From the IMG/VR virus record IMGVR_UViG_3300032092_000001: a DNA stretch of 64,000 nt; one strand, given 5' to 3'. A model generated the notes under the pieces. That model did no database searches. It saw only the letters and a list, made by a program, of their open reading frames with translations, and was not told the DNA's origin. The stretch is from a virus. Lineage: Duplodnaviria > Caudoviricetes. This document shows, one piece after another, positions 698 to 20,724 of the stretch (position 1 is its first letter; each line of letters starts with the position of its first letter). A program made the position numbers and the translations under genes.

Positions 698-699
698 AG

Positions 700-804
700 T
701 ACTCAGAGAAGGACTTGAACCTTCATGTCATTTCTGACTCGGTAAATTACCTTAGCGTCTATCCATCGGGAATTACATGATTACCTCGCTTCCGCCACCT
801 GAGC
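700..804 (-). tRNA. Degenerate tRNA-Leu-like element with D-loop insertion and collapsed anticodon arm
   Basis: GCTCAGG/TCTGAGT acceptor; GCGGAA...GGATAGACGC Leu-type D-arm split by ~25 extra nt; variable arm GTCA-GAAA-TGAC; T-arm GAAGG-TTCAAGT-CCTTC. Confidence 0.55.
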
Positions 805-808
805 ATCT

Positions 809-1012
809 TTATTTTTTAACATATTCCATCATCTCTCTCATTTTGGAAATCAATAGTTCCATTTCATCTACATTGAGGTACATACGAGGACTATCTGAAC
901 CATCCAACTCTTTTGTTTCAACGATGATTCCATTATACGTCTCCGTTGGGTATACCTCAACTTCTTGTTCTTCTGTTGAGATTGTTACTTTGTGCCAAAC
1001 TTTATTCTTCAT
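809..1012 (-). CDS. Hypothetical protein (67 aa)
   Basis: ORF track; fits gene packing; TAtcTTTG motif upstream. Confidence 0.7.
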   Translation of the reverse strand: MKNKVWHKVTISTEEQEVEVYPTETYNGIIVETKELDGSDSPRMYLNVDEMELLISKMREMMEYVKK

Positions 1013-1035
1013 AGGACAAAGATAATACTAATTTT

Positions 1036-1284
1036 TTACTTCTCCAAAAATTCTTTCACCAATCTTAAAACAATTTGAGCTCTATCTTCCCCTTCTTCCC
1101 ATTCCCAAAATAAAAACTTCTTTTTAATTGTCTTCGCATAGTCCTGAAGTCCATTCTTTTTAGAATCAATCACACCAAACTGAACCAAACACGCTTCCAT
1201 ATACCCCAAATAAAACCCTGATGGAAGAAATCCTCTATTATGGTAGTTGTTATAACAATTTTTTAAATGTCCTTTCTGTAGCAT
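1036..1284 (-). CDS. Hypothetical protein (82 aa)
   Basis: ORF track; promoter-like motif upstream. Confidence 0.65.
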   Translation of the reverse strand: MLQKGHLKNCYNNYHNRGFLPSGFYLGYMEACLVQFGVIDSKKNGLQDYAKTIKKKFLFWEWEEGEDRAQIVLRLVKEFLEK

Positions 1285-1326
1285 AGTGTTTTAATTTATT
1301 TCACAAATCTACAACATTCTTTTCAG

Positions 1327-1497
1327 TTACACAAATATTTCTTCAATTCCCTTACAAATTTGTTTCTCATTGGATGTGTCCCAAAGTTTTGGGTTCACCA
1401 TATGACAGGTATGTTTCTTACCAGTTCTATTAACAAACTCTTTTAATTTTTGGTTGTGGTTATTCTCCACCTTCCAAGGACATTCTTTACACTTCAT
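1327..1497 (-). CDS. Small Cys/His-rich protein (56 aa), possible metal-binding, DUF6283-like
   Basis: Hand-translated MKCKECPWKVENNHNQKLKEFVNRTGKKHTCHMVNPKLWDTSNEKQICKGIEEIFV; CxxCPW...CH...C pattern. Confidence 0.6.
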   Translation of the reverse strand: MKCKECPWKVENNHNQKLKEFVNRTGKKHTCHMVNPKLWDTSNEKQICKGIEEIFV

Positions 1498-1504
1498 TTT
1501 AAAC

Positions 1505-1726
1505 TTATAGACTCATTTTTCTTCTAATTCTTCTTTTAGCCCTTCTAGACGCTCTGTCATACTGACGACACCATTTTTTGTACGATACTTCTTTACCATT
1601 GGCTAGTTTAATTTTTGAAGGTAACTCATCCTGAATAGGGATGTTAGTACTCACATTAACAGTGTCTTGCCCATATAATAAAGATGAAATCAAGATAGTA
1701 AAAATTGAAACTAATAGATTTTTCAT
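1505..1726 (-). CDS. Small secreted/membrane protein
   Basis: MKNLLVSIFTILISSLLYGQ signal-peptide-like start; basic C-terminus. Confidence 0.65.
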   Translation of the reverse strand: MKNLLVSIFTILISSLLYGQDTVNVSTNIPIQDELPSKIKLANGKEVSYKKWCRQYDRASRRAKRRIRRKMSL

Positions 1727-1777
1727 AGTGGTGTGATTATTTCTACAAATATACCACACCTATTCTTACCCCACAAG

Positions 1778-1784
1778 TATTTAT
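1778..1784 (+). promoter_or_regulatory. TATTTAT putative phage late promoter motif (representative copy)
   Basis: Sense-strand TATTTAT lies ~5-45 nt upstream of starts at 1792, 6399, 11087, 14540, 17064, 17314, 18987, 20724, 21485, 25014, 25398, 32781, 34375, 34725, 39761, 40791, 41087, 52948. Confidence 0.6.
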
Positions 1785-1791
1785 TTATGAA

Positions 1792-3552
1792 ATGTCAAAA
1801 AAATTTTTAATTTCTGAGGACGAAAGAAGGGATATCCTATCAATGTATGGAATCCTCAAAGAGTCCATTGACCCTACAAAAGGAGGTACTCAAGAATTTA
1901 GAGTAAATTATAAAGCAGGATGGTATGATGCAAATAATCCTTCAGCCTACCTGGATGGACAGAATAAATTAATTGATGAGATTGATAATTTTGTAAAAAC
2001 ACAATTAATCCCTTATCTACAAAAAGTACCATCTAGCGTGGTCGCCATGAAGTTTAGGTCAGGAGAATCTTTGGTCCCCAATACCGATAATGAAGGTAAA
2101 GATAAGGGTAAAGGACAACCTTTAGAACCTGGTAGATTAAGTGAGTTAAGAAAATATTATTTAGAACAATATTTGAATACTGTCGTCATTCCACAAATAC
2201 AAAATGTTGACAAACAAGCCGAAATACCCGAATTACAATATGAAAAGGTTGAACCAAAAGAACCTTGGATTGGTAAATCGTGGTGTAAAAACCCAACAGA
2301 TAAAGAAGGTAGGAGTTGTCTAAAAGCTTGGAAAGATAGTGGATATATTGACAGAGATAAATATAATTTAGACCAAGTAAGTGAGTTTTCAATTACGGTT
2401 ACCCCTAAGACACCGACCAAAAAAGTAGAAGATTGCCCATCAACAATCAGAATTAGATTTGAGATTAAAAATCATAGCTGTCAAAATGCTGAATTTTTTG
2501 TATTCGCAAATAAAACTAGATTAAATAATATGGAAGGTGGAATGACCGCAAACTTGAATACAGGTTCAGGTGGTAGAGGTATACCAGGTGTTAAAGACCA
2601 ACCAATATTCCCAAAAGAATTAATGAATCCGGGTTATGGTATTTTAAGTCGTAAATATAAATCCCCACCCAAAGGTCAAACTAAAGAACAGAATGACGCT
2701 CTTTTTAGTAAAGCAACAAGATGGGACGATTTTGAAATAACCCCATCAATTAAAGAGGAAATATTATCACAATCAATTAATGATAAAAACACCACTCCAT
2801 TTATTAACATATGGTTTGAATGTACCACCTATGATGCTCATGACGATATTGTTACAATAACGATTTATGATGGGAATAATAAAGTAGTTGGTAAACCATT
2901 TTCACCTAATGGTAAAAATGAAGGTTTATTGTGTACTTTAGACAAATGCGGTATTCCGATAAAGACAATTAATGGCTCAATTGGCCCATCAGAAGGAGAT
3001 GTTAGTTCCGCAAGACAAGAGTTAATTAATTATAAGAGTAGTTTGATGAATAGTTTAGGTTTGAGTGCCGACACAACTAACTTAGATACTAAGGGGCTGG
3101 AATTAGAGAAAGCGGGAAGTTTACTTACAAACATTAATACAGTTCTTAAAAGTTTTGACGACGCATTTAAATCAATTAAATCGGAGTTTGGAAAATACAA
3201 TAAGGAATTTAATAAACTTGATGAAACAACAAGAAAGTTTATTATGTCTCAAGGAGACTCATTTAATTTTGTTAGGAATCAGAAAATTGAATACTTTCAG
3301 AAAGTACTCAATTCTAATGGATATAAAAGTTTACTTAGAAAGGACCCTTTAGACCCAAATTCATACAAAAGAGGTTTAGTTACAAGTGATATGGGTGGAG
3401 ATTTAAAAGTAAGACTTGATAAATTTTACAATTATTTCAATAAATTCTACAAGATAGGAGATGATGAAAAAATTAGACCGATATCATTAGTAAGCCCTGA
3501 GAAATATATCAATCTTAATAATGAATTAAATAAAATACGAGAACAATCTTAA
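1792..3552 (+). CDS. Large hypothetical protein (586 aa), probable virion/head-associated
   Basis: Long ORF; TATTTAT upstream; N-terminus MSKKFLISE...ILKE. Confidence 0.85.
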   Translation: MSKKFLISEDERRDILSMYGILKESIDPTKGGTQEFRVNYKAGWYDANNPSAYLDGQNKLIDEIDNFVKTQLIPYLQKVPSSVVAMKFRSGESLVPNTDNEGKDKGKGQPLEPGRLSELRKYYLEQYLNTVVIPQIQNVDKQAEIPELQYEKVEPKEPWIGKSWCKNPTDKEGRSCLKAWKDSGYIDRDKYNLDQVSEFSITVTPKTPTKKVEDCPSTIRIRFEIKNHSCQNAEFFVFANKTRLNNMEGGMTANLNTGSGGRGIPGVKDQPIFPKELMNPGYGILSRKYKSPPKGQTKEQNDALFSKATRWDDFEITPSIKEEILSQSINDKNTTPFINIWFECTTYDAHDDIVTITIYDGNNKVVGKPFSPNGKNEGLLCTLDKCGIPIKTINGSIGPSEGDVSSARQELINYKSSLMNSLGLSADTTNLDTKGLELEKAGSLLTNINTVLKSFDDAFKSIKSEFGKYNKEFNKLDETTRKFIMSQGDSFNFVRNQKIEYFQKVLNSNGYKSLLRKDPLDPNSYKRGLVTSDMGGDLKVRLDKFYNYFNKFYKIGDDEKIRPISLVSPEKYINLNNELNKIREQS

Positions 3553-3592
3553 CTTTGATTATAGTTGTATTTTCAAATCGTTGAGTTCTTTT

Positions 3593-4105
3593 TCAATTAT
3601 TTTTATACCACTCAGGTGTTTCTCTATTTTTCCAAACCGCAAATCCTGACTTGGCTTCACGGTAGTAATTTCTATATGATTCAATAACATCATTACCTAC
3701 TTTGAACTCATCTCCCATCGCTAATGGAGGGGTTGTAAAATCAATATCATGAATGTTTGGTCTATTGGTTAAACACCACTCAATTACATCTTGAGATTTG
3801 TGACGTTTACCATATCGGTATGTATATTCTTTACACAACTCAAGTCCCAAATCACATAGGTAAAGATAGTTACTTAAACTCTCACGAGTCCAAATAGCAC
3901 AAGGATGATTCCTATGAGATAACTTGTACGGTACTTGGTCGTTTACTTGGTCGGTACTTGGTGGGTACTTGGTGGGTACTTGGTGGGTTACATGGTGGAC
4001 ACCACACAATAGTTGAGCGGTTTCCAATATCATCTTAACGACGTGTTTGTCACAGTGATACTGAGCACATTTTTTAACGTCAAAATCCAAAAAGAAAATA
4101 TTCAT
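3593..4105 (-). CDS. Pyrimidine-dimer DNA glycosylase / endonuclease V-like protein
   Basis: MNIFFLD...HCDKHVVKMILETAQLL and HRNHPCAIWTRES motifs of the Pyr_excise-type family. Confidence 0.8.
   Translation of the reverse strand: MNIFFLDFDVKKCAQYHCDKHVVKMILETAQLLCGVHHVTHQVPTKYPPSTDQVNDQVPYKLSHRNHPCAIWTRESLSNYLYLCDLGLELCKEYTYRYGKRHKSQDVIEWCLTNRPNIHDIDFTTPPLAMGDEFKVGNDVIESYRNYYREAKSGFAVWKNRETPEWYKNN
3931..3986 (+). repeat. Intragenic 11-nt tandem repeat
   Basis: GTACTTGGTGG x3 perfect (3954-3986) preceded by two imperfect units (GTACTTGGTCG, TTTACTTGGTCG). Confidence 0.9.
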
Positions 4106-4118
4106 ACCGCTAATATAT

Positions 4119-4145
4119 AAAAAAAACCGATTACTCGGCTTTTTT
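4119..4145. terminator. Short intrinsic terminator-like hairpin
   Basis: A-run CCGA-TTAC-TCGG followed by C and T-run. Confidence 0.45.
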
Positions 4146-4355
4146 AATCAGTCTTTGATAATGATTCTCATCAATAGCAAGTCTGAGTCTATTTTCGGTC
4201 GCCTTATATAAGTCGGCGCCAGGTCCACCCAATTGTTTCCCATACATTGTCAGATAATTCCTAACAAGTTTTCTACAAGCGATGTCTTGTATCGGATGGG
4301 TACAAGAGTCAATAACACTGATTACCCATAACATTGTTTCATACCAACCTTTCAT
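4131..4355 (-). CDS. Hypothetical protein (74 aa)
   Basis: Start corrected to MKGWYETML because the ORF-track start lies inside the tRNA gene. Confidence 0.7.
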   Translation of the reverse strand: MKGWYETMLWVISVIDSCTHPIQDIACRKLVRNYLTMYGKQLGGPGADLYKATENRLRLAIDENHYQRLIKKAE

Positions 4356-4376
4356 AGTTTTATATTTTAAAGTTTG

Positions 4377-4451
4377 TGAAGAAGACGGGAATCGAACCTC
4401 GTGGCACAAGGGTTTTCGGACCCTTTGCTCTACCTTCTGAGCTACTTCTTC
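4377..4451 (-). tRNA. tRNA-Phe-like with aberrant 8-nt anticodon loop (TCCGAAAA) and bulged T-stem
   Basis: GAAGAAG/CTTCTTC acceptor + A73; GCTC-AGAAGGTA-GAGC D-arm; AAGGG/CCCTT anticodon stem; TTCGATT T-loop. Confidence 0.7.
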
Positions 4452-4458
4452 ATTTATA

Positions 4459-5187
4459 TTATTTACTTAAAACTTCCTTGTTGTAGTAGTCATCAAAACC
4501 TACTAACATCTCAGAAATTGTTTTGGTACCTTCACTCTTAATTACTTCATCAATCAACCCAAATTCCTTAGCCTCATCTGAGTTATACCATCTATCTCTC
4601 CTTGAGAACTCCAATACCTCGTCAACCGTTTTCCCACAATTCTCAGCAATCATCTTAAACAAAATGTAGTTGTATTTCTCAGCTTCCATTTGATTAATTC
4701 TTGTGTCCTGCACATTACCCTCCGTTCCGTGACTAACTTGGTGAGTCATGACTTTGGAATATACAAGTGATGAACGTTTACCTTTGGTCCCTGATGATAA
4801 CAACACCGAGCCCATTGACGCACACATCCCAATGTTTGTGGTTGCAACATCTGACTTAATGTAGTTCATCAAATCAACGATACCCAAACCACAGAGAACT
4901 GAACCACCAGGTGAGTTAATATATAACGTAATGTCACGTTGTTCAACTGAGTCCAAAAATAACAACTGAGCCTGAACAATATCCGACATATGTTGGTTAA
5001 CCGCTCCCGACACCCACAAAATTCGTTCTCTCATTAATCGTGAGAAAATATCAATCTGTGTTGCTCTTAATTCTCTTTCCTCTAACACATAAGGTGTTAA
5101 ACCATTTTCAAATCTGTCCAAATTTAGTGAAGAAATACCCTCACTCATTGCAAATTTTCTAAACTCTTTTCCGTAATTCATTTTCAT
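4459..5187 (-). CDS. clpP: ATP-dependent Clp protease proteolytic subunit
   Basis: DIFSRLMRERI, YINSPGGSV, CASMG (catalytic Ser), HQ (catalytic His), RDRW motifs. Confidence 0.95.
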   Translation of the reverse strand: MKMNYGKEFRKFAMSEGISSLNLDRFENGLTPYVLEERELRATQIDIFSRLMRERILWVSGAVNQHMSDIVQAQLLFLDSVEQRDITLYINSPGGSVLCGLGIVDLMNYIKSDVATTNIGMCASMGSVLLSSGTKGKRSSLVYSKVMTHQVSHGTEGNVQDTRINQMEAEKYNYILFKMIAENCGKTVDEVLEFSRRDRWYNSDEAKEFGLIDEVIKSEGTKTISEMLVGFDDYYNKEVLSK

Positions 5188-5194
5188 TTCTTAA

Positions 5195-5605
5195 AAAGGT
5201 AAAGGTCGTCTTCTCTGTCCGTGTGGTATTCACGAGACGACCTTTGGTTAGTGGATATTACCATATATAGTATTTCTTCGGATATGTCCCAAGAGAGTGG
5301 GACCGTAGTAACCATCCACCGAAGACCTATACTCTCACCCATATTACAGGGTTACCCTCAGGACATCTTAACCCTACCCCCAAAGTTACATGGTCGGTCT
5401 CACTCGTAAGAAGAGTGTATATTGTAGAATTGTCCAGTGTTTCTACAACTTGTGGATTGTATTACAACCATTTAAGGTCCCTAACCCCTTCCATCCATAA
5501 TTGGGGTATCTGATTCAAATTTGTGTAGCCTCCCCCATAGCCTTGGAGCCTTCCCGCCAGGTTCACACTGTCCAACCGCAGATAAATCGGTATTGTGGGG
5601 TCTTC
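5195..5605 (-). ncRNA. Candidate ~400-nt structured RNA immediately upstream of clpP
   Basis: No credible ORF; GC-rich; perfect 11-bp stem 5201-5211/5235-5245 plus stems GTCCC/GGGAC, CTTCGG/CCGAAG, CACTC/GAGTG, TTGTAGAA/TTCTACAA, CCCC/GGGG, ACCG/CGGT. Confidence 0.55.
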
Positions 5606-5613
5606 TTTACAAA

Positions 5614-5979
5614 TTAGATTACTTCGGAAATTGCTTCGTCAGCATATTCCATAATAATATCGTTTTCAACACCTTCTGTAGCACTTACGAATGCGTCTCT
5701 CAAAACATCTTCGTCAATACTTGGTACAATTTCACGACCATCTACGTCAAATGTTACCACATCATTAGCATCTAATGAATTAATCATTTCATCAAAGATG
5801 TACTCATTAATTTTGTTGGTGTATTCAACCAAGAAGTTTTCAAGTTGTTCTCTTGTGAAAACGATATCCGCTTCTTCAACTACGAAACCCGCATCGGATT
5901 TAACTTCATTTAATTGTGATTGGATTTCATTCAATTTTTCAATCAACTCACTGTTTTGGTTTTTGTTTTTTTTGCTCAT
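5614..5979 (-). CDS. Hypothetical acidic protein (121 aa)
   Basis: ORF track; TATATTTG promoter motif near 6010. Confidence 0.8.
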   Translation of the reverse strand: MSKKNKNQNSELIEKLNEIQSQLNEVKSDAGFVVEEADIVFTREQLENFLVEYTNKINEYIFDEMINSLDANDVVTFDVDGREIVPSIDEDVLRDAFVSATEGVENDIIMEYADEAISEVI

Positions 5980-6029
5980 AATATTTATTTTTTGTTTTTA
6001 TTTTCTTTTACAAATATACACCAGATTTC

Positions 6030-6227
6030 TTATTCTAACAAGGTGTAGATGTTATTTTCATCCAAAATAATTTCACCCTTTTCTCCAATGGTAATACACA
6101 AACCTTCCATCACATTTTGGAAGTTTGTTTCACTCATAACATTAGCCTTGACAAGTTTTTTGTATCCCAAAATGAAGTCAATCAATTCAGGTTCACAGAT
6201 AAATCCTTTTTCAATTACTGGTATCAT
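6030..6227 (-). CDS. Hypothetical protein (65 aa)
   Basis: ORF track; follows tRNA-Cys. Confidence 0.6.
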   Translation of the reverse strand: MIPVIEKGFICEPELIDFILGYKKLVKANVMSETNFQNVMEGLCITIGEKGEIILDENNIYTLLE

Positions 6228-6243
6228 ATTGTATTAAATTTTG

Positions 6244-6315
6244 AGGTCGGAGTTGGAATCGAACCAACATAAGAGCTTTTGCAGAGCTCCACTTAAACCA
6301 TTCAGACATCCGACC
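6244..6315 (-). tRNA. tRNA-Cys(GCA)
   Basis: GGTCGGA/TCCGACC acceptor, U73 discriminator, GAGCT-CTGCAAA-AGCTC anticodon arm, GTTGG-TTCGATT-CCAAC T-arm. Confidence 0.92.
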
Positions 6316-6398
6316 TTATTTAGAATACAAAGATAATAATACTTATCACTACAAATCAAATTTTTTATTAATTATTTTTTCATTATATTTATCAATGT

Positions 6399-7055
6399 AT
6401 GGCAGTAAATATTGAGTTCTTTTTTAAACAGTTCACTAAAATGAATCATACAATTAATTGTGAGAATGGTTTGCAATTAATTTGGTCGGGAGATTATAAG
6501 GAAAGATTTGTAAAGAGATTCAAAGACAAGGAAGATGTTCCAATATACTTCATTAATAATCCCCAAGATTCACCGTACACAAAGGAAGCTCTCACACAGT
6601 TTATTGAGTCCAAATTAGAATCATTTAGAGAAATTATTCCAATAGATGAAAGTTATATTACAAGTCGTCTATACGAGATTGACTCTGAAGAAGCATTATT
6701 TATTCCAAATAAAGTATTAAGAAACATTACAAATAAATTACAAAAAGTCACGGTTGACAAATCAGTAAACCCCGTAAGATTAATTGGAGAATTTGACGGT
6801 CAGTTTGAAATATCTCAAGATGATGAGAATATACTTGTTTATATAGATTTCTCACTTTCAGAATTACAGTTAAACGGAGAAGAAATAGATAGTTCCCATG
6901 ATGAATACGATGAATGGATTGATTATTTCAGATACGATAATAACGAGTTCCTTGAAGACGGGATTTGGGTCTGTTTTAGTGAATTAACCAATAACAAAAA
7001 CTTTTATAACTATGAGTGGATGGGTTGGTATAGTAATTTCTATTTCATTACCTAA
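6399..7055 (+). CDS. Hypothetical protein (218 aa)
   Basis: ORF track; TATTTAT upstream. Confidence 0.8.
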   Translation: MAVNIEFFFKQFTKMNHTINCENGLQLIWSGDYKERFVKRFKDKEDVPIYFINNPQDSPYTKEALTQFIESKLESFREIIPIDESYITSRLYEIDSEEALFIPNKVLRNITNKLQKVTVDKSVNPVRLIGEFDGQFEISQDDENILVYIDFSLSELQLNGEEIDSSHDEYDEWIDYFRYDNNEFLEDGIWVCFSELTNNKNFYNYEWMGWYSNFYFIT

Positions 7056-8625
7056 TTAATACCACGTGTCCTTTTTCTACGTGTCCAATTCCTCTGTCGT
7101 CCCTATACGTCATTATCCAGTTATAAACACCTGTCTGACAATAGTACCCACTACCATCATTACCATTCCAAGTTTGGTTTAATGATTTAATATTATAAAC
7201 CATCATACCATCTCTACTGTAAATCTTCATATCAGGTTCATAAACTGACATACCAGCAATTTTAAACACGTCGTTGAATCCATCATTATTTGGTGTAAAT
7301 GAATTGGGAACATACAATCTATAACAAGTGTTTGTTCTAATGGTGATTGCATTTAACTCACTCTCACAACCCAAAGTATCAGTTCCATAAACTGTAATGG
7401 TATGGTCCATAGTCGTGTCAGGCCAAAGAACATTTAATTCAAAGTCAGTATCAGGTTGTAAAACACCATCAACATGCCAAGTATATTCAATACCAACACT
7501 ATCAGGAGCCAAATAAGTTTGGTTATAAGGGTCAGTACAGAAATCAATGAAGTTTGATTGAGCAAATATTTCAGGAGCTTCAAACTTTGGTCTCACATAA
7601 ATCTCAACGGAATCAACAACAGGACACCCATATATGTTAACAAAATACAATGAATAATATGTACCTGAATTAAACCCAGTGAAAACATTCCCAACCAAAT
7701 TCTCTCCATTCCAAAATCCACCTGAAGGACTTGCTGATAACTGAACCGTCTCTTCCAAACAGATACCAATATTGTCTTGGCCAAATGTAATTAAAGTATC
7801 CACAACAGTAATTGTTGTATCAATAATATCACCAATACATCCATCAACAGTTGTTTCTTGTACAGATATTACATAATCACCTGGTACCCCACCCCATTCA
7901 ACATCAATACTATTTGTTCCGTTGTCAGTCATAGTACCTCCACCAGAAATAGTCCAATCATATGTTGAACCAACAGTATTTACAACTGAATATGTTTCAA
8001 CAAGTCCAACACATATCGTATCCATTGGAACATCAATAGGTGAAGTTACAACATCACCTCCAAGAACAGTTCCATTGAATACTTGAAACGGAGAATCAAA
8101 ACAAGACTCGGTTCCCCAACTACCCATAGTTCCATCAGCATAAGGAGTAACCTCAATCAACAACGACAAAGGGTCACACTCATCAGTAACTTGTAACTGA
8201 ACACAAAAAGACCATAGACAATCAAGACCAAAATCCCCCCAATCATTACCAGGGTTTCCATCAGTAGGTCCTTGAGGTCCCTCATAGAAATAACCCGGTC
8301 CAACAGTTAATGTCCCATCATTATTTGTAACACTTTCAGACCATAACCATTGTTGAGGTGGTACCGCTCCACCACAATCATCAGGTCCTGAAATAGGACT
8401 GTGTGATACCCATCCCGGTCCCAAAGTCAATCCAAACCCCTCAATCCAATTGGACCCAAAGTTAGTTCCATTCCAACCGTTCATCGTGTAACACATAGTT
8501 ACAACAGTTTCCGGTTCATAAGTCCCATTAGTAGGTGATGGCGTTAATGTAAAAGATTGGACCCCAGCACATTGTGAAAGGACAATATTGGGGATTAATA
8601 ATAGGAAAAATAGGATTGTTCTCAT
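7048..8625 (-). CDS. Secreted protein with gliding-motility-associated (T9SS type-B / CHU_C) C-terminal domain and PKD/Ig-like repeats
   Basis: Signal peptide MRTILFFLLLIPNIVLSQC; C-terminus LYVPNSFTPNNDGFNDVFKI...IYSRDG...WNG...GVY...KGHVVLIR. Confidence 0.85.
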   Translation of the reverse strand: MRTILFFLLLIPNIVLSQCAGVQSFTLTPSPTNGTYEPETVVTMCYTMNGWNGTNFGSNWIEGFGLTLGPGWVSHSPISGPDDCGGAVPPQQWLWSESVTNNDGTLTVGPGYFYEGPQGPTDGNPGNDWGDFGLDCLWSFCVQLQVTDECDPLSLLIEVTPYADGTMGSWGTESCFDSPFQVFNGTVLGGDVVTSPIDVPMDTICVGLVETYSVVNTVGSTYDWTISGGGTMTDNGTNSIDVEWGGVPGDYVISVQETTVDGCIGDIIDTTITVVDTLITFGQDNIGICLEETVQLSASPSGGFWNGENLVGNVFTGFNSGTYYSLYFVNIYGCPVVDSVEIYVRPKFEAPEIFAQSNFIDFCTDPYNQTYLAPDSVGIEYTWHVDGVLQPDTDFELNVLWPDTTMDHTITVYGTDTLGCESELNAITIRTNTCYRLYVPNSFTPNNDGFNDVFKIAGMSVYEPDMKIYSRDGMMVYNIKSLNQTWNGNDGSGYYCQTGVYNWIMTYRDDRGIGHVEKGHVVLIR

Positions 8626-8669
8626 GCCGATAAATATCAACATAGATACAAATAAGATTATAATAGTTG

Positions 8670-8747
8670 TACCCCCTGAGAGACTCGAACTCTCACCCTA
8701 AGACATCGTTCTAAGCGATGCGCGTCTGCCTATTCCGCCAAGGGGGC
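8670..8747 (-). tRNA. tRNA-Leu(TAG), short variable arm
   Basis: GCCCCCT/AGGGGGT acceptor + A73; GCGGAATAGGCAGACGC D-arm; CATCG-CTTAGAA-CGATG; GAGAG-TTCGAGT-CTCTC. Confidence 0.88.
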
Positions 8748-8749
8748 AA

Positions 8750-8961
8750 ATTCCCCACCCTGAGATTATGGTGAGTAGTCATATCGGTTTTTTCCTATTT
8801 GTAAAAACCTGATGGGCATCCCCGTTAAAAAAAGTCAGACTACGTGGCGGTGTGTCAGGACCGTTACTCCACGGCTGGGTACTATCGGCATTTCCCAGTC
8901 TATACCGAGTCCATTGTTAAATGAGTCTTGGACCAAAGACTGTTGAGTATCTCTTACTCAT
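8750..8961 (-). ncRNA. Candidate ~210-nt RNA with tandem H-type pseudoknots between two tRNA genes
   Basis: AGUCU/AGACU with loop GGUCCA pairing UGGACU; CGGUAU/AUGCCG with loop CUGGG pairing CCCAG; CGUGG/CCACG; AUC.GGUUUUU/AAAAACCGAU; CACC/GGUG. Confidence 0.5.
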
Positions 8962-9039: not shown

Positions 9040-9053
9040 ATGTTTTTAATCTC

Positions 9054-9075
9054 TCAAAGAACTTCAACAAAGATA
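9054..9075 (-). promoter_or_regulatory. Bacteroidota-type -7 promoter element followed by boxA-like sequence, heading the tRNA/ncRNA operon
   Basis: TATCTTTG (9075-9068) then AAGTTCTTTGA (9064-9054). Confidence 0.6.
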
Positions 9076-9086
9076 TGGTAACTTTT

Positions 9087-9389
9087 TCATTCCACCAAAT
9101 CTTTTTCCACATCTTCATACCATTCTTCAACCGCAAATAATAATTGAATAAACTCACCATCTTCATCCGATTCATACTTAACATGGAACCCACCTGTTGA
9201 TATATTTGTTTTTTCCTCAAACGCCATTTTTAATAATCGTCTTGCTTCTTGTCTCAATTCAGGAACAGTAGGAATACCTTCTTCAGAAGCCACCCACTCC
9301 CAATTTAATGATTCCATTACTTTTTGGACTTGTTCAAACTTGAAGTAGTCCATTATGTTGTCAATCGCGACTTGTTGTTTCGGTGTCAT
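9087..9389 (-). CDS. Hypothetical protein (100 aa)
   Basis: Start set at MTPKQQ, just after the upstream gene's stop. Confidence 0.75.
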   Translation of the reverse strand: MTPKQQVAIDNIMDYFKFEQVQKVMESLNWEWVASEEGIPTVPELRQEARRLLKMAFEEKTNISTGGFHVKYESDEDGEFIQLLFAVEEWYEDVEKDLVE

Positions 9390-15905: not shown

Positions 15906-16165
15906 TTTTCTAATTTAATAATAAATTTTGTTTTACTCTTATTAAAATCTTCTTTAACAACCTCATTCCAACTTAATTCTTCTAAGAACTTTTTGAAATC
16001 TTCGTCTTTGATTTTTTTAATATATTTGAGTAAATCTTCTTCTGTAGCATCTGGATTAACATCTAAATAATACTTTATGATTGGAAACTTTTCTAAGTCA
16101 ACCCTCTCAAGTTCCCTAACTCCAGTATAATGATGTGTTTCCACTACCCCTATTTTTATTTCCAT
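15902..16165 (-). CDS. Hypothetical protein (87 aa)
   Basis: ORF track; overlaps rfbB start by 4 nt. Confidence 0.7.
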   Translation of the reverse strand: MEIKIGVVETHHYTGVRELERVDLEKFPIIKYYLDVNPDATEEDLLKYIKKIKDEDFKKFLEELSWNEVVKEDFNKSKTKFIIKLEK

Positions 16166-16227
16166 AACTTTTCTAAGTATTAAAATTTAATAGGAATATT
16201 TTATATATTCAACACTCAAGTAAAATA

Positions 16228-17064
16228 TTACTTCAATAAATTGTAATATTCCTTAAAGTGTTTGATTCTGTCAGGTAAACCTATAGTCCCACCATTAACT
16301 CGTTTAGTCACCGCAGTTACAGTATCGTCATCAGCACCCTTGTCACAAATAGACCAAAGTTTATTTGAGTCAAAGAAAAATGCGGCAGATGCCAATGGAT
16401 ATTTTGTAGCAACTAAATCCGGATTGGATACCGTGTCTTCACCAATAAACTTAGCGAAGTTCGTATAGTTCTGTTTTCCAGTCAACTGAATGTAACCTCG
16501 GCCACGAAATTTATAACCTTCTTTGGTTGACTCGTCACCATTACCCATTCTTCCACCATAAACTTTTGATGCAATTTTTTCAGGGTTTCTAGCATATCCC
16601 TCGGCTAAATTACCAGGAAAATACTTCGGGAAGATTTTCTTTAAACCGTCAGCAGAATAATTTAAATTCTCTTGAACCGCTTTAAATCCACCTGACTCGT
16701 GTCCACATTGAGCCAAGAAATGGGCTAATCTTAATGGGTTAGTGATATTGAATTTCTTAGCAGTGTCAGGGATTTGAGCAATTACAGCATCAGGAATATG
16801 TCCTTTAAGATTCTGCAATTTAAATTCTGAACTTGTAGGAATTACAACATCTTCTTTTATCACTTGAGCAGGTTGTTCAGTCGCTCCGAACATTTTACTC
16901 CAAGTTCCATCACCAACAATTCCGTCAGCAGTTAATCCGTTAGCTGCTTGCCATTCTTTAACTTTAGCCGCTGTTCCATTACCGAAGATACCATCAGCGG
17001 TAAGTCCTAATTTTGCTTGGAGTTTTTTAACGTCTTCTCCCTGAGACCCAACTTTTAGTAACAT
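16228..17064 (-). CDS. Endolysin: N-terminal peptidoglycan-binding domain plus GH19 (chitinase-class) catalytic domain
   Basis: LLKVGSQGEDVKKLQ...ADGIFG...ADGIVG; HFLAQCGHESGGF, ENLNYS, FRGRGYIQLTGK, RVNGG. Confidence 0.9.
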   Translation of the reverse strand: MLLKVGSQGEDVKKLQAKLGLTADGIFGNGTAAKVKEWQAANGLTADGIVGDGTWSKMFGATEQPAQVIKEDVVIPTSSEFKLQNLKGHIPDAVIAQIPDTAKKFNITNPLRLAHFLAQCGHESGGFKAVQENLNYSADGLKKIFPKYFPGNLAEGYARNPEKIASKVYGGRMGNGDESTKEGYKFRGRGYIQLTGKQNYTNFAKFIGEDTVSNPDLVATKYPLASAAFFFDSNKLWSICDKGADDDTVTAVTKRVNGGTIGLPDRIKHFKEYYNLLK

Positions 17065-17089
17065 AATTTTATAGTTTTAACTATAAATA

Positions 17090-17314
17090 TTACTTTTTGG
17101 TGTAAATGAAAAAGTGTTCTCCAATTTCTTTAGTATACCTTTCAATGAACTTACCCTCACAAGCCTTTTTCATTGTGTTACTTAAAGCAAAATGTTCATC
17201 ATCAGTAATAGTTGGTTGAATGATTATCTCATATTCCATTTTATTTGGAAGTTCTTTTTCTTTCACCTCAGCCCATGATGGGAGGACCTCTTTTAAATTT
17301 TGTAGTATTGACAT
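17090..17314 (-). CDS. Hypothetical protein (74 aa)
   Basis: ORF track; TATTTAT upstream. Confidence 0.7.
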   Translation of the reverse strand: MSILQNLKEVLPSWAEVKEKELPNKMEYEIIIQPTITDDEHFALSNTMKKACEGKFIERYTKEIGEHFFIYTKK

Positions 17315-17335
17315 AATAGTAAGTATCTTACATAA

Positions 17336-17363
17336 ATAAAAAAACCCGTCAGAAAGACAGGTC
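17336..17363 (-). terminator. Intrinsic terminator ending the large ncRNA
   Basis: Minus strand ACCTGTC-TTTCT-GACGGGT followed by a T-run. Confidence 0.75.
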
Positions 17364-17364
17364 A

Positions 17365-18272
17365 GATTAGTTAATATAGCCTGAGATTACAGCTTTATGT
17401 GAGAACCTTTTGAAGTATTATTGTTTTACTTCGTATCCACTTCCTTTTGAGAAGTATTTCTCAGTCACGGTCTTTTAGGTTTACCACTCCTTGAGGTCTA
17501 AGTTACTCTCTTCTTACTCAACTCTTTCCGAGGTTGCCACCCCAGTTCGTCCTTGCGGGATTAAAGGTTTTTCGTAAAACTACAGTCGGACTTGGGGTCT
17601 TTCTGTGCAATGAACGGCTCATTACTATGTAGTGACCTTTCACCTAAACCTGATGGACACTTTTCCTTAATGTATTTTTTAATTATTGGATAATTTTGGA
17701 ATCCATTAGTTTTGTGTCGTAGATGTGTCAGAGTAGTGGTCCACCGTAAGCTCCGTCTCCTTTTGGGCGACAGAATACTAAACTACTCCGTGAAGTGTCC
17801 CCACCTCCATATTTCAAGATTACTTCATAAAGATACCTTGGTAGGTCGTCTTTAAGGATAGTAGCGACACCACTCGTTCTCTATCTTACCTTTCGGTTTT
17901 AAGTCCTCTATCGTATTGGAACCCGCAATAGTGTAATTGGATAATCACATTTTTTACTTGATTCCTATGGGTTATTCTTGTTGTTCTTCCGAACTCAACC
18001 TGATAATCTACTTTACCAGGTCACCCTTCCATTTTCCCTACGAAGTCATCCTCGGTACTAAAGGTTTGGTGATATCCCACTTGTGTACTTGAGTTCTCCA
18101 CCCCTTACGGGGTTTCAAACCGCAGCCTCCTCAACACGGGGGAGACCACTTTATCCTACTTTAGTAGTTTATTTAAGGACCATACACGGCCCATTATCGT
18201 TTATCTCTTTTCAGTGCTCATATTCGTCACACGAAGGTGGGAATACGACTTACTCAGAGAATGGATAATCTA
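17365..18272 (-). ncRNA. Large (~900 nt) ornate structured ncRNA, GOLLD/ROOL-like
   Basis: No credible ORF; GC-richer than flanks; minus-strand GNRA hairpins (ACCCC-GUAA-GGGGU, ACC-GAAA-GGU, CC-GCAA-GG); long-range helices 17655-62/17793-800, 17731-37/17782-88, 17714-19/17864-69; own promoters and terminator. Confidence 0.8.
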
Positions 18273-18275
18273 TTT

Positions 18276-18554
18276 TTTCAAAGAACGTTTCGGACATTTC
18301 CGAATTGTTTTACAAATTTACGACATTTATTTCTATTTGTCAAGTTATTTGTGAACTTTTTTTGAGATTTGGAACTTTCATCGTTTTACCACTTTGTGAA
18401 CCTTAATCTCAAATTCTTTACAAACTTACGACTTTTTTTTCAATCTGTCAAATAAATTAAGAACTTTTTTTTTCAATTTGACTACCGAGTATCTTTCATT
18501 CCCTATAAGTGTCAAATCTTTTACAAACTTACGGCAAGAAATTGGTAGTGTCAA
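18276..18554 (-). promoter_or_regulatory. Three tandem Bacteroidota-type promoters plus boxA-like element
   Basis: TTGACA-17nt-TAA(A/G)TTTG at 18343-18313, 18451-18421, 18554-18524; CGTTCTTTGAAA at 18287-18276. Confidence 0.8.
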
Positions 18555-18561
18555 ATAAATA

Positions 18562-18966
18562 TCACAAAAAATTCAAAAGTAGTTCTTTAATACCATTAGA
18601 CATGTATAAATTCTCAATTTCATTCCTACCCATATATTGACATTGAGTGTGCTCAAACCCATCCATAGCATTTTCTAAATCAGGAACTATCTTTTGATTT
18701 GTTTCATAAGTGAATACATGAAGGACACTTTTCTGAACCCCTAATTTATTATAACGATTAATCTTACCATAAGATTCAATATCGCCATTAATATCAACTC
18801 CCATTTCCTCAATAAATTCTCTGTACGCAGCTTTTTTAGGGTCCTCCCCTTCCTCAATACCTCCCATAGGTATTGCCCATTTACCTGGCTCTTCGTTTTC
18901 TTGAGCTCTTTGACACACAAGACATTTGTCCTTAACTTTTACAATAATCCCAGCAGATTGTTTCAT
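18562..18966 (-). CDS. NUDIX hydrolase
   Basis: Nudix box GGIEEGEDPKKAAYREFIEEMG. Confidence 0.9.
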   Translation of the reverse strand: MKQSAGIIVKVKDKCLVCQRAQENEEPGKWAIPMGGIEEGEDPKKAAYREFIEEMGVDINGDIESYGKINRYNKLGVQKSVLHVFTYETNQKIVPDLENAMDGFEHTQCQYMGRNEIENLYMSNGIKELLLNFL

Positions 18967-18986
18967 ATCTAATATTTATCATAAGT

Positions 18987-19343
18987 ATGTATGTCAAAAT
19001 AAATAATAATGATTTTAAAGTCAAAGTATGTAATTCCAACAGAGAGGTTTCCGAAGGGATGATGGGTAAGGAATTCATCGGATTTGATGGTATGATATTC
19101 TTTATGGGTAATGGATACCATAGTTTTTGGATGAAAAACTGTATCATACCATTAGACATTATCTTTATTGATAGCAATTTAATAATAACTGAAATATATC
19201 ATAACTGTGAACCATGTGACACACCAATATGTGAGAATTATGACGGTTATGGCAAATACGTATTAGAGATTGAAGGTGGTCGTTGTGAAAACGATAACAT
19301 TCAAATCGGTGATTCAGTCTCTTTTATTTTTCAGACTCACTAA
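18987..19343 (+). CDS. DUF192 family protein
   Basis: GMM...GMIF...FWMKNCIIPLDIIFID...YVLEIEGG. Confidence 0.85.
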   Translation: MYVKINNNDFKVKVCNSNREVSEGMMGKEFIGFDGMIFFMGNGYHSFWMKNCIIPLDIIFIDSNLIITEIYHNCEPCDTPICENYDGYGKYVLEIEGGRCENDNIQIGDSVSFIFQTH

Positions 19344-20724
19344 TCTTATCTTTAAGAACCGTTACAAATCTTTTCTGTAACATCTTCAAAAACTTAATAT
19401 AAGGACTATCACCAGACTCAGGGTTATATTTATACTTACCTTGTGGTGGTCTCTTACTTCTTCCAATATAGTTTAATCCCGAGATATTAGTAATACATTT
19501 GTGTCCGCCAGAGTTTGCTTGGATTACATCCCAAACAGGAACTGTGATTTCATCTAAAAATAACCATTCGTCTTCTGTTAATTCTGATGTTGTTTTAGAC
19601 ATTAAATCTTTAATATCCATTAATTCTTCAACACCATCTTTCTTATTTAGATATTTCTCACCGTATATTGCCGCAAAATCTTTGAACGTAAATCCAACTG
19701 AGCCTTCTCCAACACCAGTTTCTGATACCCACTTAATTGTTGACAAAGGAACTTGTTTCTCCTTTAACTGTCCTTCCCACTTTGATAAAACCTCTTGAGC
19801 AATCTCCCCAAGATTCACACCCTTCAATTGTCTTTCTTTCTTAAATGGGTTACATGACGCCTGTAACAAACCTAACGGCCAAGCAATTACCAAAAAGTCA
19901 GCCTCAGGGTTATTCTTAAATGGAGTATATCTGTCATAAGAGCCAGGTTTCATCATATTACCACCACCATACTGAACTATAATGTTATCTTCAATATCAG
20001 GGTAACTTTGCATTTGTGAAACATAACCAGCTTTATTCATCTCAAGTTTTTCAATATCTGCCCATCCCTTATCTTTCATTTCTTTTCTAATAATATTAAA
20101 AATAGACAACAAAGATGGTTGAGCATCCATTACTAACTTCTCTAAAAACCCTGGTTTGTTTTTAAATGCTAATAATAGTTTGTTAGTGACAAGTCCTAAC
20201 ATCATTCTATTTCTTTTAGCGGATGAATCCTTATCAAAAGAATAAACATAATTCATTACCATATCGGGAGTTATCTCATTAGAGGCATAATTAGCACTAT
20301 CAACCATTGATATTGTTTCTACGTCAACGGCTGTGAATATTTCAGATGAAGGAATAATTTGTGAAAGTGTTTCAACATTTGAACGAGATTGTCTAAACGA
20401 TGTTGAACCTGTGTCCTCAGCCCCTGCCTGTCTATCATGGTGGTCCGTATGAATAACGAACATAGGTTTCCCATGTGCAAAATCCACTAAGACCGGCATA
20501 ACCTCACCAGTCGCGTCAGCCTTTTTAACTGAGAATTCTTTATCACCGTACTGAATAATTTCAGTATCAACAACTTTAATTCCGTTGTCTTCAAGATATT
20601 TTTTCATGGCAATTGCTGAAGTAACACCATCTAAATCTTGGTGAAAGTAAATTTTTGCCTTTTTGTATCTATCGGATAATTCCCCGATGTTTCTAATACC
20701 ACCTTCAGAGATAATTCTTTTCAT
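19324..20724 (-). CDS. DHH/DHHA1-family phosphoesterase, putative head-packaged
   Basis: HQDLDG, VDF, TDHH, DSA and C-terminal SGGH motifs; N-terminus MKRIISE; TATTTAT upstream. Confidence 0.7.
   Translation of the reverse strand: MKRIISEGGIRNIGELSDRYKKAKIYFHQDLDGVTSAIAMKKYLEDNGIKVVDTEIIQYGDKEFSVKKADATGEVMPVLVDFAHGKPMFVIHTDHHDRQAGAEDTGSTSFRQSRSNVETLSQIIPSSEIFTAVDVETISMVDSANYASNEITPDMVMNYVYSFDKDSSAKRNRMMLGLVTNKLLLAFKNKPGFLEKLVMDAQPSLLSIFNIIRKEMKDKGWADIEKLEMNKAGYVSQMQSYPDIEDNIIVQYGGGNMMKPGSYDRYTPFKNNPEADFLVIAWPLGLLQASCNPFKKERQLKGVNLGEIAQEVLSKWEGQLKEKQVPLSTIKWVSETGVGEGSVGFTFKDFAAIYGEKYLNKKDGVEELMDIKDLMSKTTSELTEDEWLFLDEITVPVWDVIQANSGGHKCITNISGLNYIGRSKRPPQGKYKYNPESGDSPYIKFLKMLQKRFVTVLKDKISESEK

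What the first reader, a model, noticed from the sequence alone, without database searches (positions are those of the whole stretch)
18276..18554. rRNA-operon-style triple promoter plus boxA driving a single non-coding RNA
Seen: three copies of TTGACA-N17-TAA(A/G)TTTG spaced 108 and 103 bp apart, all pointing into the ncRNA, then CGTTCTTTGAAA. Established: TAnnTTTG is the Bacteroidota -7 element, and tandem promoters plus boxA (Nus antitermination) typify rRNA operons. Inference: the phage mimics an rrn leader to mass-produce the RNA from early infection using host sigma and Nus factors. The same -7 plus boxA-like arrangement recurs at 9054-9075 ahead of the tRNA/ncRNA cluster.
Basis: partly seen in the sequence, partly recalled or inferred. 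Interest (0 to 1): 0.7.

Follow-up and report, generated by a model that had tools for sequence, protein, structure and literature searches.

The report
rRNA-style leader driving phage GOLLD RNA
A large freshwater phage of Bacteroidota puts three copies of a strong host-type promoter, a small hairpin and the boxA word of its host phylum's ribosomal-RNA operons in front of its giant GOLLD RNA, so this RNA is probably made in bulk by the host's rRNA-type, termination-resistant transcription.

Summary
Three exact TTGACA-N17-TAARTTTG promoters lie on the minus strand, 103 and 108 bp apart (0 expected by chance). A hairpin and CGTTCTTTGAAA follow, and all point into a GOLLD RNA (Rfam RF02032, 306 bits) that ends at an intrinsic terminator.

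I tested the rRNA-operon comparison on data:
- In 87 Bacteroidota 16S leaders, 55 carry 2-4 tandem promoters of the same type, with a median spacing of 117 bp.
- GTTCTTTGAA is the second commonest 10-mer in these leaders. It recurs in the 16S-23S spacer and is often preceded by a hairpin.
- All 18 non-redundant related phage contigs that carry GOLLD keep GTTCTTTGA at the RNA's 5' edge, and 17 have 2-3 promoters.
- A distant 634-kb phage has the same hairpin-plus-boxA before its tRNAs and before its GOLLD.
- In four metatranscriptomes, RNA contigs cover only the stretch from boxA to the terminator at very high depth.

NusB/S10 binding, the transcription starts and early timing are not shown. 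The host genus is unknown. The second site (9051-9098) is real but is kept in only some relatives.

The published precedents are rrn leaders and T7's A1-A3 promoters with boxA. I found no paper on boxA before GOLLD. This scan has already noted the same cassette on other, related phage DNA.

The parts
18524..18554 (-). Promoter P1: TTGACA (18554-18549), 17-nt spacer, TAAGTTTG (18531-18524). It starts 8 nt after the stop codon of the NUDIX gene.
   Evidence: Exact pattern match with 0 expected. Same geometry as the window's other Bacteroidota-type promoters. Conserved in relatives.
18475..18518 (-). Hairpin module transcribed from P1 (stem GATTTGAC/GTCAAATT, with a conserved loop).
   Evidence: RNAfold gives about -8.7 kcal/mol. 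The stem changes in a compensated way in relatives (TTTGAC/GTCAAA against TTTAAC/GTTAAA).
18421..18451 (-). Promoter P2: TTGACA, 17-nt spacer, TAAGTTTG, with an upstream A-tract.
18361..18413 (-). Hairpin module transcribed from P2 (stem TTTGAGAT/ATCTCAAA).
   Evidence: RNAfold gives -11 kcal/mol. Variants of this module occur in relatives and in phage LR745206.1.
18313..18343 (-). Promoter P3: TTGACA, 17-nt spacer, TAAATTTG, with an upstream A-tract.
18289..18304 (-). boxB-like hairpin TTCGGA-AATG-TCCGAA, ending 1 nt before boxA.
   Evidence: Hairpins of different sequence hold the same place in L201 and in many host-phylum rrn leaders.
18276..18287 (-). boxA-like word CGTTCTTTGAAA.
   Evidence: GTTCTTTGAA is invariant in 12 aligned leaders and GTTCTTTGA is present in 18 of 18 non-redundant GOLLD relatives. 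GTTCTTTGAA is the second commonest 10-mer of Bacteroidota rrn leaders, and GTTCTTTG recurs in the 16S-23S spacer.
17378..18274 (-). GOLLD RNA: variable 5' domain at about 18274-17791 and conserved 3' domain at 17790-17378.
   Evidence: Rfam RF02032, 306.4 bits, E 9e-87. There is no long ORF. RNA contigs at depths of hundreds to thousands cover 17340-18277 in 4 metatranscriptomes.
17335..17363 (-). Intrinsic terminator (8-bp stem plus a T-run).
   Evidence: RNA contig cover ends in this bin.
9051..9098 (-). Second leader: promoter TTGGTG-N17-TATCTTTG (9098-9068), then AGTTCTTTGAGAG (9063-9051), directly before tRNA-Ser (9039-8963).
   Evidence: Kept in relatives L248, L250-L252 and L254 and absent in others. 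A near-identical promoter with hairpin and boxA precedes a tRNA in L201.

Best explanation
This is the expression cassette of a phage GOLLD RNA, and it is built like a ribosomal-RNA operon leader of the host phylum. Three tandem, near-consensus Bacteroidota sigma-A promoters (TTGACA at -33, 20 nt between the TTG of the -33 element and the -7 element, TAARTTTG at -7, with A-rich upstream tracts on P2 and P3) arose by tandem duplication and load host RNA polymerase at high density. Each start is followed by a small hairpin. The last hairpin is followed within 1-3 nt by boxA (CGTTCTTTGAAA), which lies directly at the 5' edge of the roughly 900-nt, untranslated, heavily folded GOLLD RNA. I infer that boxA in the nascent RNA recruits host NusB-S10, and with them the rrn-type antitermination complex. 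That would let polymerase cross the long untranslated RNA without Rho-dependent termination and perhaps help it fold as it is made. I also infer that the short leader is then removed and that transcription stops at the intrinsic terminator at 17363-17343. Unlike host rrn promoters, the phage promoters are followed by A/T-rich TAAAA rather than G+C-rich GCACCC. They may therefore escape the growth-rate or stringent control that such discriminators confer in E. coli; this is inference only. What is shown: the sequence architecture, its conservation, its match to host-phylum rrn leaders, and the high abundance and extent of the RNA. What is inferred: the transcription starts, Nus binding, Rho resistance, leader processing and timing.
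For: 1. The promoter triplet is exact, with 0 expected by chance. Its TTG-N20-TAnnTTTG geometry is the modal one for about 15 other promoters that lie just before start codons or tRNAs in the window.
2. Bacteroidota rrn leaders: of 87 with at least 600 nt upstream, 38 have 2 such promoters, 13 have 3 and 4 have 4. The median spacing is 117 bp. Leaders of the Flavobacterium genus usually have 3 promoters 87-125 bp apart, each followed by a GTTCnTTnA word.
3. A de novo k-mer count made GTTCTTTGAA the second commonest 10-mer of these leaders (31 of 96). 40 of 87 leaders have GTTCTTTG, and 18 of 50 have it again in the 16S-23S spacer. That double placement is the hallmark of rrn boxA. Many copies are preceded by a hairpin ending 1-3 nt upstream.
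4. 18 of 18 non-redundant related GOLLD loci keep GTTCTTTGA at the 5' edge of GOLLD, and 17 of 18 have 2-3 promoters 86-113 bp apart. GTTCTTTGAA is invariant while the flanks vary.
5. boxA stays next to GOLLD when a small ORF or an extra hairpin is inserted behind the promoter (L002, L080, L012, L022, L050).
6. The 634-kb phage LR745206.1 has a GOLLD 3' domain only 66% identical to this one. It carries hairpin plus boxA after its first promoter (before a tRNA) and again directly before GOLLD.
7. RNA contigs from four metatranscriptomes of four studies cover 17340-18277 at depths of 120-8800. Bins 18278-18545 show 0-33. Contigs at depth about 4 bridge 18259-18374 and 18305-18440, that is, from the promoter array into GOLLD. 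20 RNA runs from 18 studies hold part of the stretch.
8. Literature: boxA loads NusB:S10 and is sufficient to form the rrn antitermination complex. B. subtilis rrn leaders have a small 5' hairpin immediately followed by boxA, which binds NusB (PMC13753749). T7 has a boxA antitermination element behind its strong host-RNAP promoters A0-A3 (PMC3709561).
Against: No experiment shows that GTTCTTTGA binds NusB/S10 in any Bacteroidota. The identification rests on its position in rrn leaders and spacers and on its likeness to the B. subtilis and E. coli boxA. No boxC-like element was identified. Only assembled contigs were available, so no transcription start is mapped. The drop in depth at about 18277 could partly reflect how the contigs were assembled. 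The leader, boxA included, is 100-1000 times rarer than the GOLLD body. That fits processing, but it would also fit an unseen start downstream of boxA. Because boxA always abuts the GOLLD 5' end, it could belong to the RNA's maturation or structure instead. In the Flavobacterium genus, exact GTTCTTTGA was not among the rrn boxA-like words seen, so the match depends on an unknown host. In Lactobacillus, GOLLD expression is reported to rise at lysis, which does not favour 'early' expression.
Confidence: 0.7

Rival explanations
1. The GTTCTTTGAAA word, with its hairpin, is a maturation signal or a structural part of the GOLLD precursor. It could be a cleavage site that sets the 5' end of the RNA, or a segment that pairs within the precursor. 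On this reading it is not a Nus-factor loading site, and the tandem promoters only supply high transcription.
For: The word always abuts the GOLLD 5' edge, even when an ORF or an extra hairpin separates it from the promoter. High-depth RNA contigs stop at about 18277, just at the word. In rRNA operons too, the leader is a processing substrate.
Against: The same word lies in host-phylum rrn leaders and 16S-23S spacers. It also lies before tRNAs that have no GOLLD attached (window 9063-9051; L201 position 1466). I found no conserved partner for it at the 3' end of GOLLD: the candidate AGATTA/TAATCT pairing is lost in L002. The two roles do not exclude each other.
Confidence: 0.15
2. The three promoters are not additive. 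They are separately controlled starts (for example different times of infection, or different regulators bound at the conserved hairpin modules), or they act as a sink that draws host RNA polymerase away from host genes.
For: Each promoter has its own conserved downstream hairpin with a conserved loop word. Copy number varies from 1 to 3 among relatives. In E. coli, rrn P1 and P2 are controlled differently (general knowledge).
Against: The core elements of all three are near-identical, and P2 and P3 are recent duplicates. No regulator is known. Host rrn operons have the same multiplicity, so multiplicity is the ordinary form of the model being copied.
Confidence: 0.1
3. The likeness to rrn leaders is a coincidence of A/T-rich intergenic DNA that carries duplicated promoters, and the boxA-like word has no function.
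For: GTTCTTTGA as a 9-mer is not enriched in the window as a whole (3 found against 1.3 expected).
Against: The word is invariant across contigs whose neighbouring protein is only 67-89% identical and whose GOLLD sequence is 70-91% identical. It is also present in a phage whose GOLLD 3' domain is 66% identical. Strand and position are always the same.
Confidence: 0.03

Closest known systems
Bacterial rrn operon leader (tandem promoters P1/P2, then boxB-boxA-boxC, forming the rrn antitermination complex with NusA/B/E/G, SuhB and S4)
   Same: There are two to four tandem sigma-A promoters about 100-120 bp apart with A-rich upstream tracts. A hairpin is followed at once by boxA on the sense strand. 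boxA is repeated before a second stable RNA (seen in L201 and L001). The cargo is a long, untranslated, highly folded RNA, and the leader is much rarer than the mature RNA.
   Different: The cargo is a phage GOLLD RNA, not rRNA. No boxC was recognised. The -33 element is the full TTGACA, which only 8 of 231 host-phylum rrn promoters have. The 6 nt after the -7 element are A/T-rich (TAAAAG, TAAAGA, TAAAAC), whereas 216 of 231 rrn promoters have at least 4 G/C there. boxA lies about 26 nt after the -7 element; in rrn leaders that distance ranges from 20 to over 150 nt and is mostly above 40.
Phage T7 early region: strong host-RNAP promoters A0-A3 followed by a boxA antitermination element (Savalia et al. 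2010, as cited in PMC3709561)
   Same: A phage places several tandem strong host-type promoters and a boxA at the head of a transcription unit read by host polymerase.
   Different: The T7 unit encodes early mRNAs in E. coli. Here the unit is a single structured non-coding RNA in a Bacteroidota phage, with that phylum's promoter grammar and boxA variant.
GOLLD RNA (Rfam RF02032; the cryo-EM structure is a 14-mer nanocage; bioRxiv 10.1101/2024.12.08.627333, also PMC12286853)
   Same: The driven RNA is a full-scoring member of the family. It is phage-borne, in a genome that also carries tRNA genes, and has a conserved 3' domain and a variable 5' domain.
   Different: That paper has no mention of boxA or antitermination, and its only use of 'promoter' is the T7 promoter of the in vitro templates (term search of its text). 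The leader described here is additional to what is described for the family.
Lambdoid nut sites (boxA then boxB, read by N protein with Nus factors)
   Same: They use a boxA word plus a hairpin in the nascent RNA of a phage.
   Different: The order here is hairpin then boxA, as in rrn operons, not boxA then boxB. No N-like protein is known here. The hairpin loop does not resemble a boxB GNRA-like pentaloop as far as I can tell from memory; I did not test this.

Membership tests
rrn-type boxA antitermination leader | A boxA word matching the one conserved in the host phylum's rrn leaders | tested here: met
   CGTTCTTTGAAA was compared with a de novo count in which GTTCTTTGAA was the second commonest 10-mer (31 of 96 leaders). 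40 of 87 leaders have GTTCTTTG.
rrn-type boxA antitermination leader | The same word recurs before the second large RNA of the operon (the 16S-23S spacer), which identifies it as boxA rather than a promoter element | tested here: met
   18 of 50 Bacteroidota spacers carry GTTCTTTGAC. In the phages it recurs before a tRNA and before GOLLD in L201, and twice in L001.
rrn-type boxA antitermination leader | The word lies on the sense strand in the transcribed leader, downstream of the promoter(s) | tested here: met
   By sequence, it lies 26 nt after the -7 element of P3. Low-depth RNA contigs bridge the promoter array and GOLLD. The exact starts are not mapped.
rrn-type boxA antitermination leader | A hairpin (boxB-like) lies immediately upstream of boxA | tested here: met
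   The hairpin is at 18304-18289. Hairpins of other sequence hold the same place in L201 and in many rrn leaders. B. subtilis shows the same arrangement (PMC13753749).
rrn-type boxA antitermination leader | A boxC element lies downstream of boxA | not tested
   No consensus for Bacteroidota is available. The sequence after boxA is A-rich and then GATTATCC.
rrn-type boxA antitermination leader | NusB-S10 binding and Rho-resistant read-through that depends on boxA | not testable with these tools
   This needs biochemistry or genetics.
Bacteroidota sigma-A promoter (-33 TTG, -7 TAnnTTTG) | Both elements are present at the phylum's spacing | tested here: met
   There are 20 nt between the TTG of the -33 element and TAnnTTTG in all three promoters. 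This is the commonest value (17 of the 32 others) among TTG/TAnnTTTG pairs in the window and lies within the 19-21 nt set for the 231 rrn promoters counted.
Bacteroidota sigma-A promoter (-33 TTG, -7 TAnnTTTG) | A transcription start lies a few nt downstream of the -7 element | not testable with these tools
   Only assembled RNA contigs were available.
GOLLD RNA (RF02032) | A covariance-model score above the Rfam gathering threshold over the whole model | tested here: met
   306.4 bits against 150, covering model positions 1-416 of 416.
Lambda-type nut site | boxA upstream of boxB, together with an N-family protein | tested here: not met
   The order here is hairpin then boxA. No N-like gene was sought or seen among the neighbours.

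The most novel reading that the evidence does not exclude
Hairpin-plus-boxA leaders are a general tag by which large Bacteroidota phages hand their stable RNAs (GOLLD, tRNA clusters, other unnamed structured RNAs) to the host's rRNA transcription-and-folding machine. On this reading the antitermination complex is needed as a co-transcriptional chaperone for the GOLLD cage to form. The phage promoters have shed the G+C-rich discriminator of rrn promoters, so GOLLD keeps being made, and draws Nus factors and S10/S4 away, when host rRNA synthesis is shut down during infection.
Probability: 0.15. Interest if true: 0.8.

Novelty: new variant of a known kind. Interest (0 to 1): 0.55.

Why it matters
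GOLLD is one of the largest bacterial or phage non-coding RNAs. It forms a 14-mer RNA cage and still has no known function. A conserved rRNA-style leader says how the cell is made to produce it: by host sigma-A polymerase at very high rate, probably in the Rho-resistant mode otherwise reserved for rRNA. That gives a concrete handle for expressing and disturbing GOLLD in vivo, through boxA and promoter mutants or Nus and Rho manipulation. It also links GOLLD to the ribosome-biogenesis machinery. As a by-product, the analysis gives the first data-based picture I know of for rrn leader grammar across Bacteroidota: tandem promoters, the GTTCTTTGA-type boxA and its Flavobacteriaceae variants. It extends the known boxA cargoes (rRNA, suhB, CRISPR arrays, lambda and T7 mRNAs) to a phage structured RNA. 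The principle itself is known, so this is an extension and not a new mechanism.

Tried and rejected
1. The sigma-70 consensus scan is not informative here. It found 12 sites against 10.3 expected and picks up only the TTGACA halves, because the host phylum uses a different -7 element.
2. No whole genome is held for the window, so I could not search the phage for its own Nus-like or sigma factors.
3. More distant relatives of the neighbouring DHH-like gene (L034-L079, 11 scanned) have no GOLLD within 6 kb. They say nothing about the leader.
4. A leader-trailer helix between the 5' flank (AGATTA, CTGAG) and the 3' flank (TAATCT, CTCAG) of GOLLD looked possible in the window. The TAATCT partner is missing in L002, so I dropped it.
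5. Window-wide enrichment of GTTCTTTGA is not significant. Only position and conservation carry weight.
6. Absence of RNA contig cover on the flanking genes (16000-17339 and 18546-20000) cannot be used as evidence, because contigs and filters leave holes. For the same reason, the stop of the high-depth contigs at about 18277 is only a weak hint of a processed 5' end.
7. Literature searches for GOLLD with phage, boxA with Bacteroidetes, and boxA with phage tRNA genes found no paper describing this leader. The library is incomplete, so this does not prove that none exists.
8. PMC2941873 (Savalia 2010) is not held. The T7 boxA statement is taken from PMC3709561.
9. Flavobacterium as host: neither the -33 TTGACA nor exact GTTCTTTGA is typical of that genus's rrn leaders, but related words (GTTCTTTAA, GTTCCTTGA, GTTCATTGA) occur there. 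The genus is neither supported nor excluded.

Full report
**What is in the sequence**

The feature lies on the minus strand. Read 5' to 3', the order is as follows.
- The stop codon of a NUDIX hydrolase gene (18966-18562; Pfam NUDIX, E 4e-17).
- Three copies of TTGACA-N17-TAARTTTG at 18554-18524, 18451-18421 and 18343-18313.
- A 6-bp hairpin at 18304-18289.
- CGTTCTTTGAAA at 18287-18276.
- About 900 nt without a credible ORF.

The distal 413 nt of that stretch (17790-17378) match the Rfam GOLLD model over its whole length, at 306 bits against a gathering score of 150. A clean intrinsic terminator follows at 17363-17343.

The exact promoter pattern occurs three times in 64 kb and nowhere else, and none of 100 shuffles gave a single match. 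P2 and P3 share 82% identity over 55 nt, including an upstream A-tract, so the array grew by tandem duplication.

**Are these promoters of the host type?**

I scanned the window for TTG, 17-22 nt, then TAnnTTTG. This gave 35 sites with a strong mode at 20 nt. About 15 of them lie directly before a start codon or a tRNA gene. The phage therefore uses the Bacteroidota sigma-A promoter grammar throughout. Supporting a Bacteroidota host, a protein encoded in the window carries a CHU_C type IX secretion sorting domain. The three GOLLD promoters are the only ones in the window with the full TTGACA.

**Is the arrangement really rRNA-operon-like?**

I tested this on data rather than from memory. One scan of the species-representative genomes with a Bacteroidota-specific 16S 5' word returned 120 loci.
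- Of 87 leaders with at least 600 nt upstream, 38 have two promoters of the strict TTG/TAnnTTTG form, 13 have three and 4 have four. The median spacing is 117 bp and most lie between 81 and 150 bp. The phage spacings of 103 and 108 bp fall inside this range.
- A blind 10-mer count in the leaders ranked GTTCTTTGAA second. The other top words were all forms of the -7 element itself.
- 40 of 87 leaders contain GTTCTTTG, and 18 of 50 loci carry it again in the 16S-23S spacer, mostly as AGTTCTTTGACATA. In many leaders a stable hairpin ends 1-3 nt before it. A word that lies both before 16S and before 23S is what defines the rrn boxA.
- In print, boxA loads NusB:S10 and suffices to form the antitermination complex. 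B. subtilis rrn leaders have a small 5' hairpin followed at once by a boxA (AUGAUCUUUGAAA) that binds NusB (PMC13753749).
- In 20 leaders of the Flavobacterium genus, three promoters 87-125 bp apart are usual. Each is followed by its own GTTCnTTnA word, and CACGTTCnTAGACATAT is fixed before 16S.

**Conservation**

The neighbouring 466-aa DHH-like protein has about 600 relatives in IMG/VR, on contigs of up to 321 kb.
- Among the 80 loci fetched, 26 carry GOLLD downstream.
- All 18 non-redundant loci whose 5' edge is present keep GTTCTTTGA immediately before the GOLLD 5' domain. Seventeen have 2 or 3 promoters, mostly 86-113 bp apart.
- In an alignment of 12 leaders, the ten bases GTTCTTTGAA are invariant while the neighbouring bases vary.
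- When something is inserted behind the promoter, boxA stays with GOLLD. The insertions are a small ORF in L002, L003 and L080, and a longer hairpin in L012, L017, L022 and L050.
- The only hit in the phage collection is the 634-kb uncultured phage LR745206.1, whose GOLLD 3' domain is 66% identical (287 bits). Its order is: promoter, hairpin, AAGTTCTTTGAATTT, tRNA; two further promoters; two more tRNA-like genes; then hairpin, TAGTTCTTTGAAATA, GOLLD.

So the hairpin-boxA unit is kept across deep divergence, with three different hairpin sequences. It appears twice in one unit, as in an rrn operon.

**RNA evidence**

Twenty metatranscriptome runs from 18 studies (river, lake and sediment) hold part of the stretch. 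I laid the contigs of four runs from four studies on 16000-20000.
- Summed contig depths were 120-8800 in every bin from 17340 to 18277.
- Depths were 0-33 in 18278-18545.
- Depths were almost nil elsewhere.
- Contigs at depth about 4 run from the promoter array into GOLLD (18259-18363, 18259-18374 and 18305-18440).

What may be said is that RNA of this GOLLD lineage is abundant in nature and that its assembled extent coincides with boxA on one side and the terminator on the other. Contigs cannot show starts, and holes prove nothing. The apparent loss of the 30-nt leader is therefore only a weak hint of processing.

**Mechanism**

The best-supported reading has four steps.
1. Host holoenzyme starts at three strong promoters.
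2. The nascent hairpin-boxA loads NusB-S10 and the rest of the rrn-type complex.
3. The modified polymerase crosses a long, untranslated, pause-rich RNA without Rho-dependent termination and stops at the intrinsic terminator.
4. The leader is trimmed.

Only the architecture, its conservation, its match to rrn leaders and the abundance of the RNA are shown. Every biochemical step is inferred.

One difference from the model being copied may matter. 216 of 231 host-phylum rrn promoters have at least 4 G/C in the six bases after the -7 element (typically GCACCC), whereas the phage has TAAAAG, TAAAGA and TAAAAC. In E. coli, a G+C-rich discriminator underlies stringent and growth-rate control (general knowledge). 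The phage copies may therefore be free of such control, but this is speculation.

**The second site**

Among 26 related loci, six in all (the window plus L248, L250-L252 and L254) have this form. Others have a different promoter variant that abuts the tRNA with no boxA. In L240 and L256 a GTTCATTAA variant precedes a protein gene. This site is therefore plausible but much less firmly conserved than the GOLLD one. The window's third GTTCTTTGA lies inside an ORF and is chance.

**What is not supported**

- 'From early infection' is untested. The literature reports that GOLLD rises at lysis in a Lactobacillus prophage.
- The host genus is open. TTGACA at -33 together with exact GTTCTTTGA is commoner in Cytophagales, Sphingobacteriales and Chitinophagales leaders. 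Flavobacteriaceae mostly have GTTCATTGA or GTTCnTAGAC. Related words do occur in the Flavobacterium genus.

**Comparison with what is known, and novelty**

The cassette works like an rrn leader. For every membership feature that can be tested in sequence, the result was positive. boxC and Nus binding could not be tested. It is not a lambda-type nut site, because the order of elements is reversed.

A phage precedent exists: T7 has a boxA antitermination element behind its tandem host promoters A0-A3 (PMC3709561). boxA is also reported before suhB and CRISPR operons.

I found no paper that describes boxA or an rrn-like leader before GOLLD. This scan has already recorded the same cassette on other DNA from related lake phages. 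My tests were run independently of those notes and agree with them.

I class it as a new variant of a known kind: a known expression device in a new phylum's dialect, with a new cargo.

Noticed in passing
window 18518-18475 and 18413-18361 (-); L201 about 1655-1700: Each upstream promoter is followed by its own hairpin. The stems change in a compensated way among relatives (TTTGAC/GTCAAA against TTTAAC/GTTAAA). The loops keep a word like GATnnAnATAC or ACGATTCAGATACA, and the same module occurs in the distant 634-kb phage LR745206.1. The function is unknown; it could be transcript stabilisation, a regulator site or a small RNA.
   Followed up: partly
L001 5308-5460; L031 about 8400-8540: In two relatives an extra element lies between P1 and P2. 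In L001 a second boxA (TGTTCTTTGAAAA) is followed by about 130 nt of G+C-richer, foldable sequence. In L031 a different insert holds the same place. These may be further small structured RNAs riding on the same leader.
   Followed up: no
L002 7604-7840; L003; L080 about 6060-6210: A small ORF of about 50-70 codons is inserted between a GOLLD promoter and the boxA. In these phages one promoter would therefore drive an mRNA and then GOLLD.
   Followed up: no
L029 and L032, about 70-150 nt before the terminator downstream of GOLLD: In these relatives a tRNA-like gene lies between the GOLLD 3' end and the terminator. This matches the published association of GOLLD with tRNAs.
   Followed up: no
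window 8962-8748 (-): A 215-nt ORF-free gap lies between tRNA-Ser and tRNA-Leu inside the boxA-led unit. It could hold another structured RNA, but Rfam found nothing at gathering score. In addition, ARAGORN and Rfam disagree on two tRNAs: 8669-8747 was found only by ARAGORN and 4377-4451 only by Rfam.
   Followed up: no
L203-L234 (rrn leaders of the genus of L122, a Flavobacterium MAG): The rrn operons of this genus usually carry three tandem promoters, each followed about 15-20 nt later by its own GTTCnTTnA word. A fixed CACGTTCnTAGACATATTGAATTGACAGC lies before 16S. Marine Flavobacteriaceae use GTTCATTGA. I know of no published description of this grammar.
   Followed up: partly
window 7048-8643 (-): A phage ORF of 531 aa carries a PKD-like domain and a C-terminal CHU_C type IX secretion sorting domain. 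The phage therefore encodes a protein that appears addressed to the Bacteroidota-specific T9SS.
   Followed up: no
window 18270-18263, 18008-18001, 17945-17938 and 17695-17688 (-): The word (G)ATTATC(C) recurs at least four times along the GOLLD RNA. The first copy lies directly after boxA and is conserved in relatives (AAAGATTATCC). Its meaning is unknown.
   Followed up: no
window 17340-18277: RNA of this GOLLD lineage was found in 20 metatranscriptome runs from 18 freshwater, river and sediment studies. In the four runs I laid, assembled depth reached hundreds to thousands, so it is among the abundant transcripts of those libraries.
   Followed up: partly
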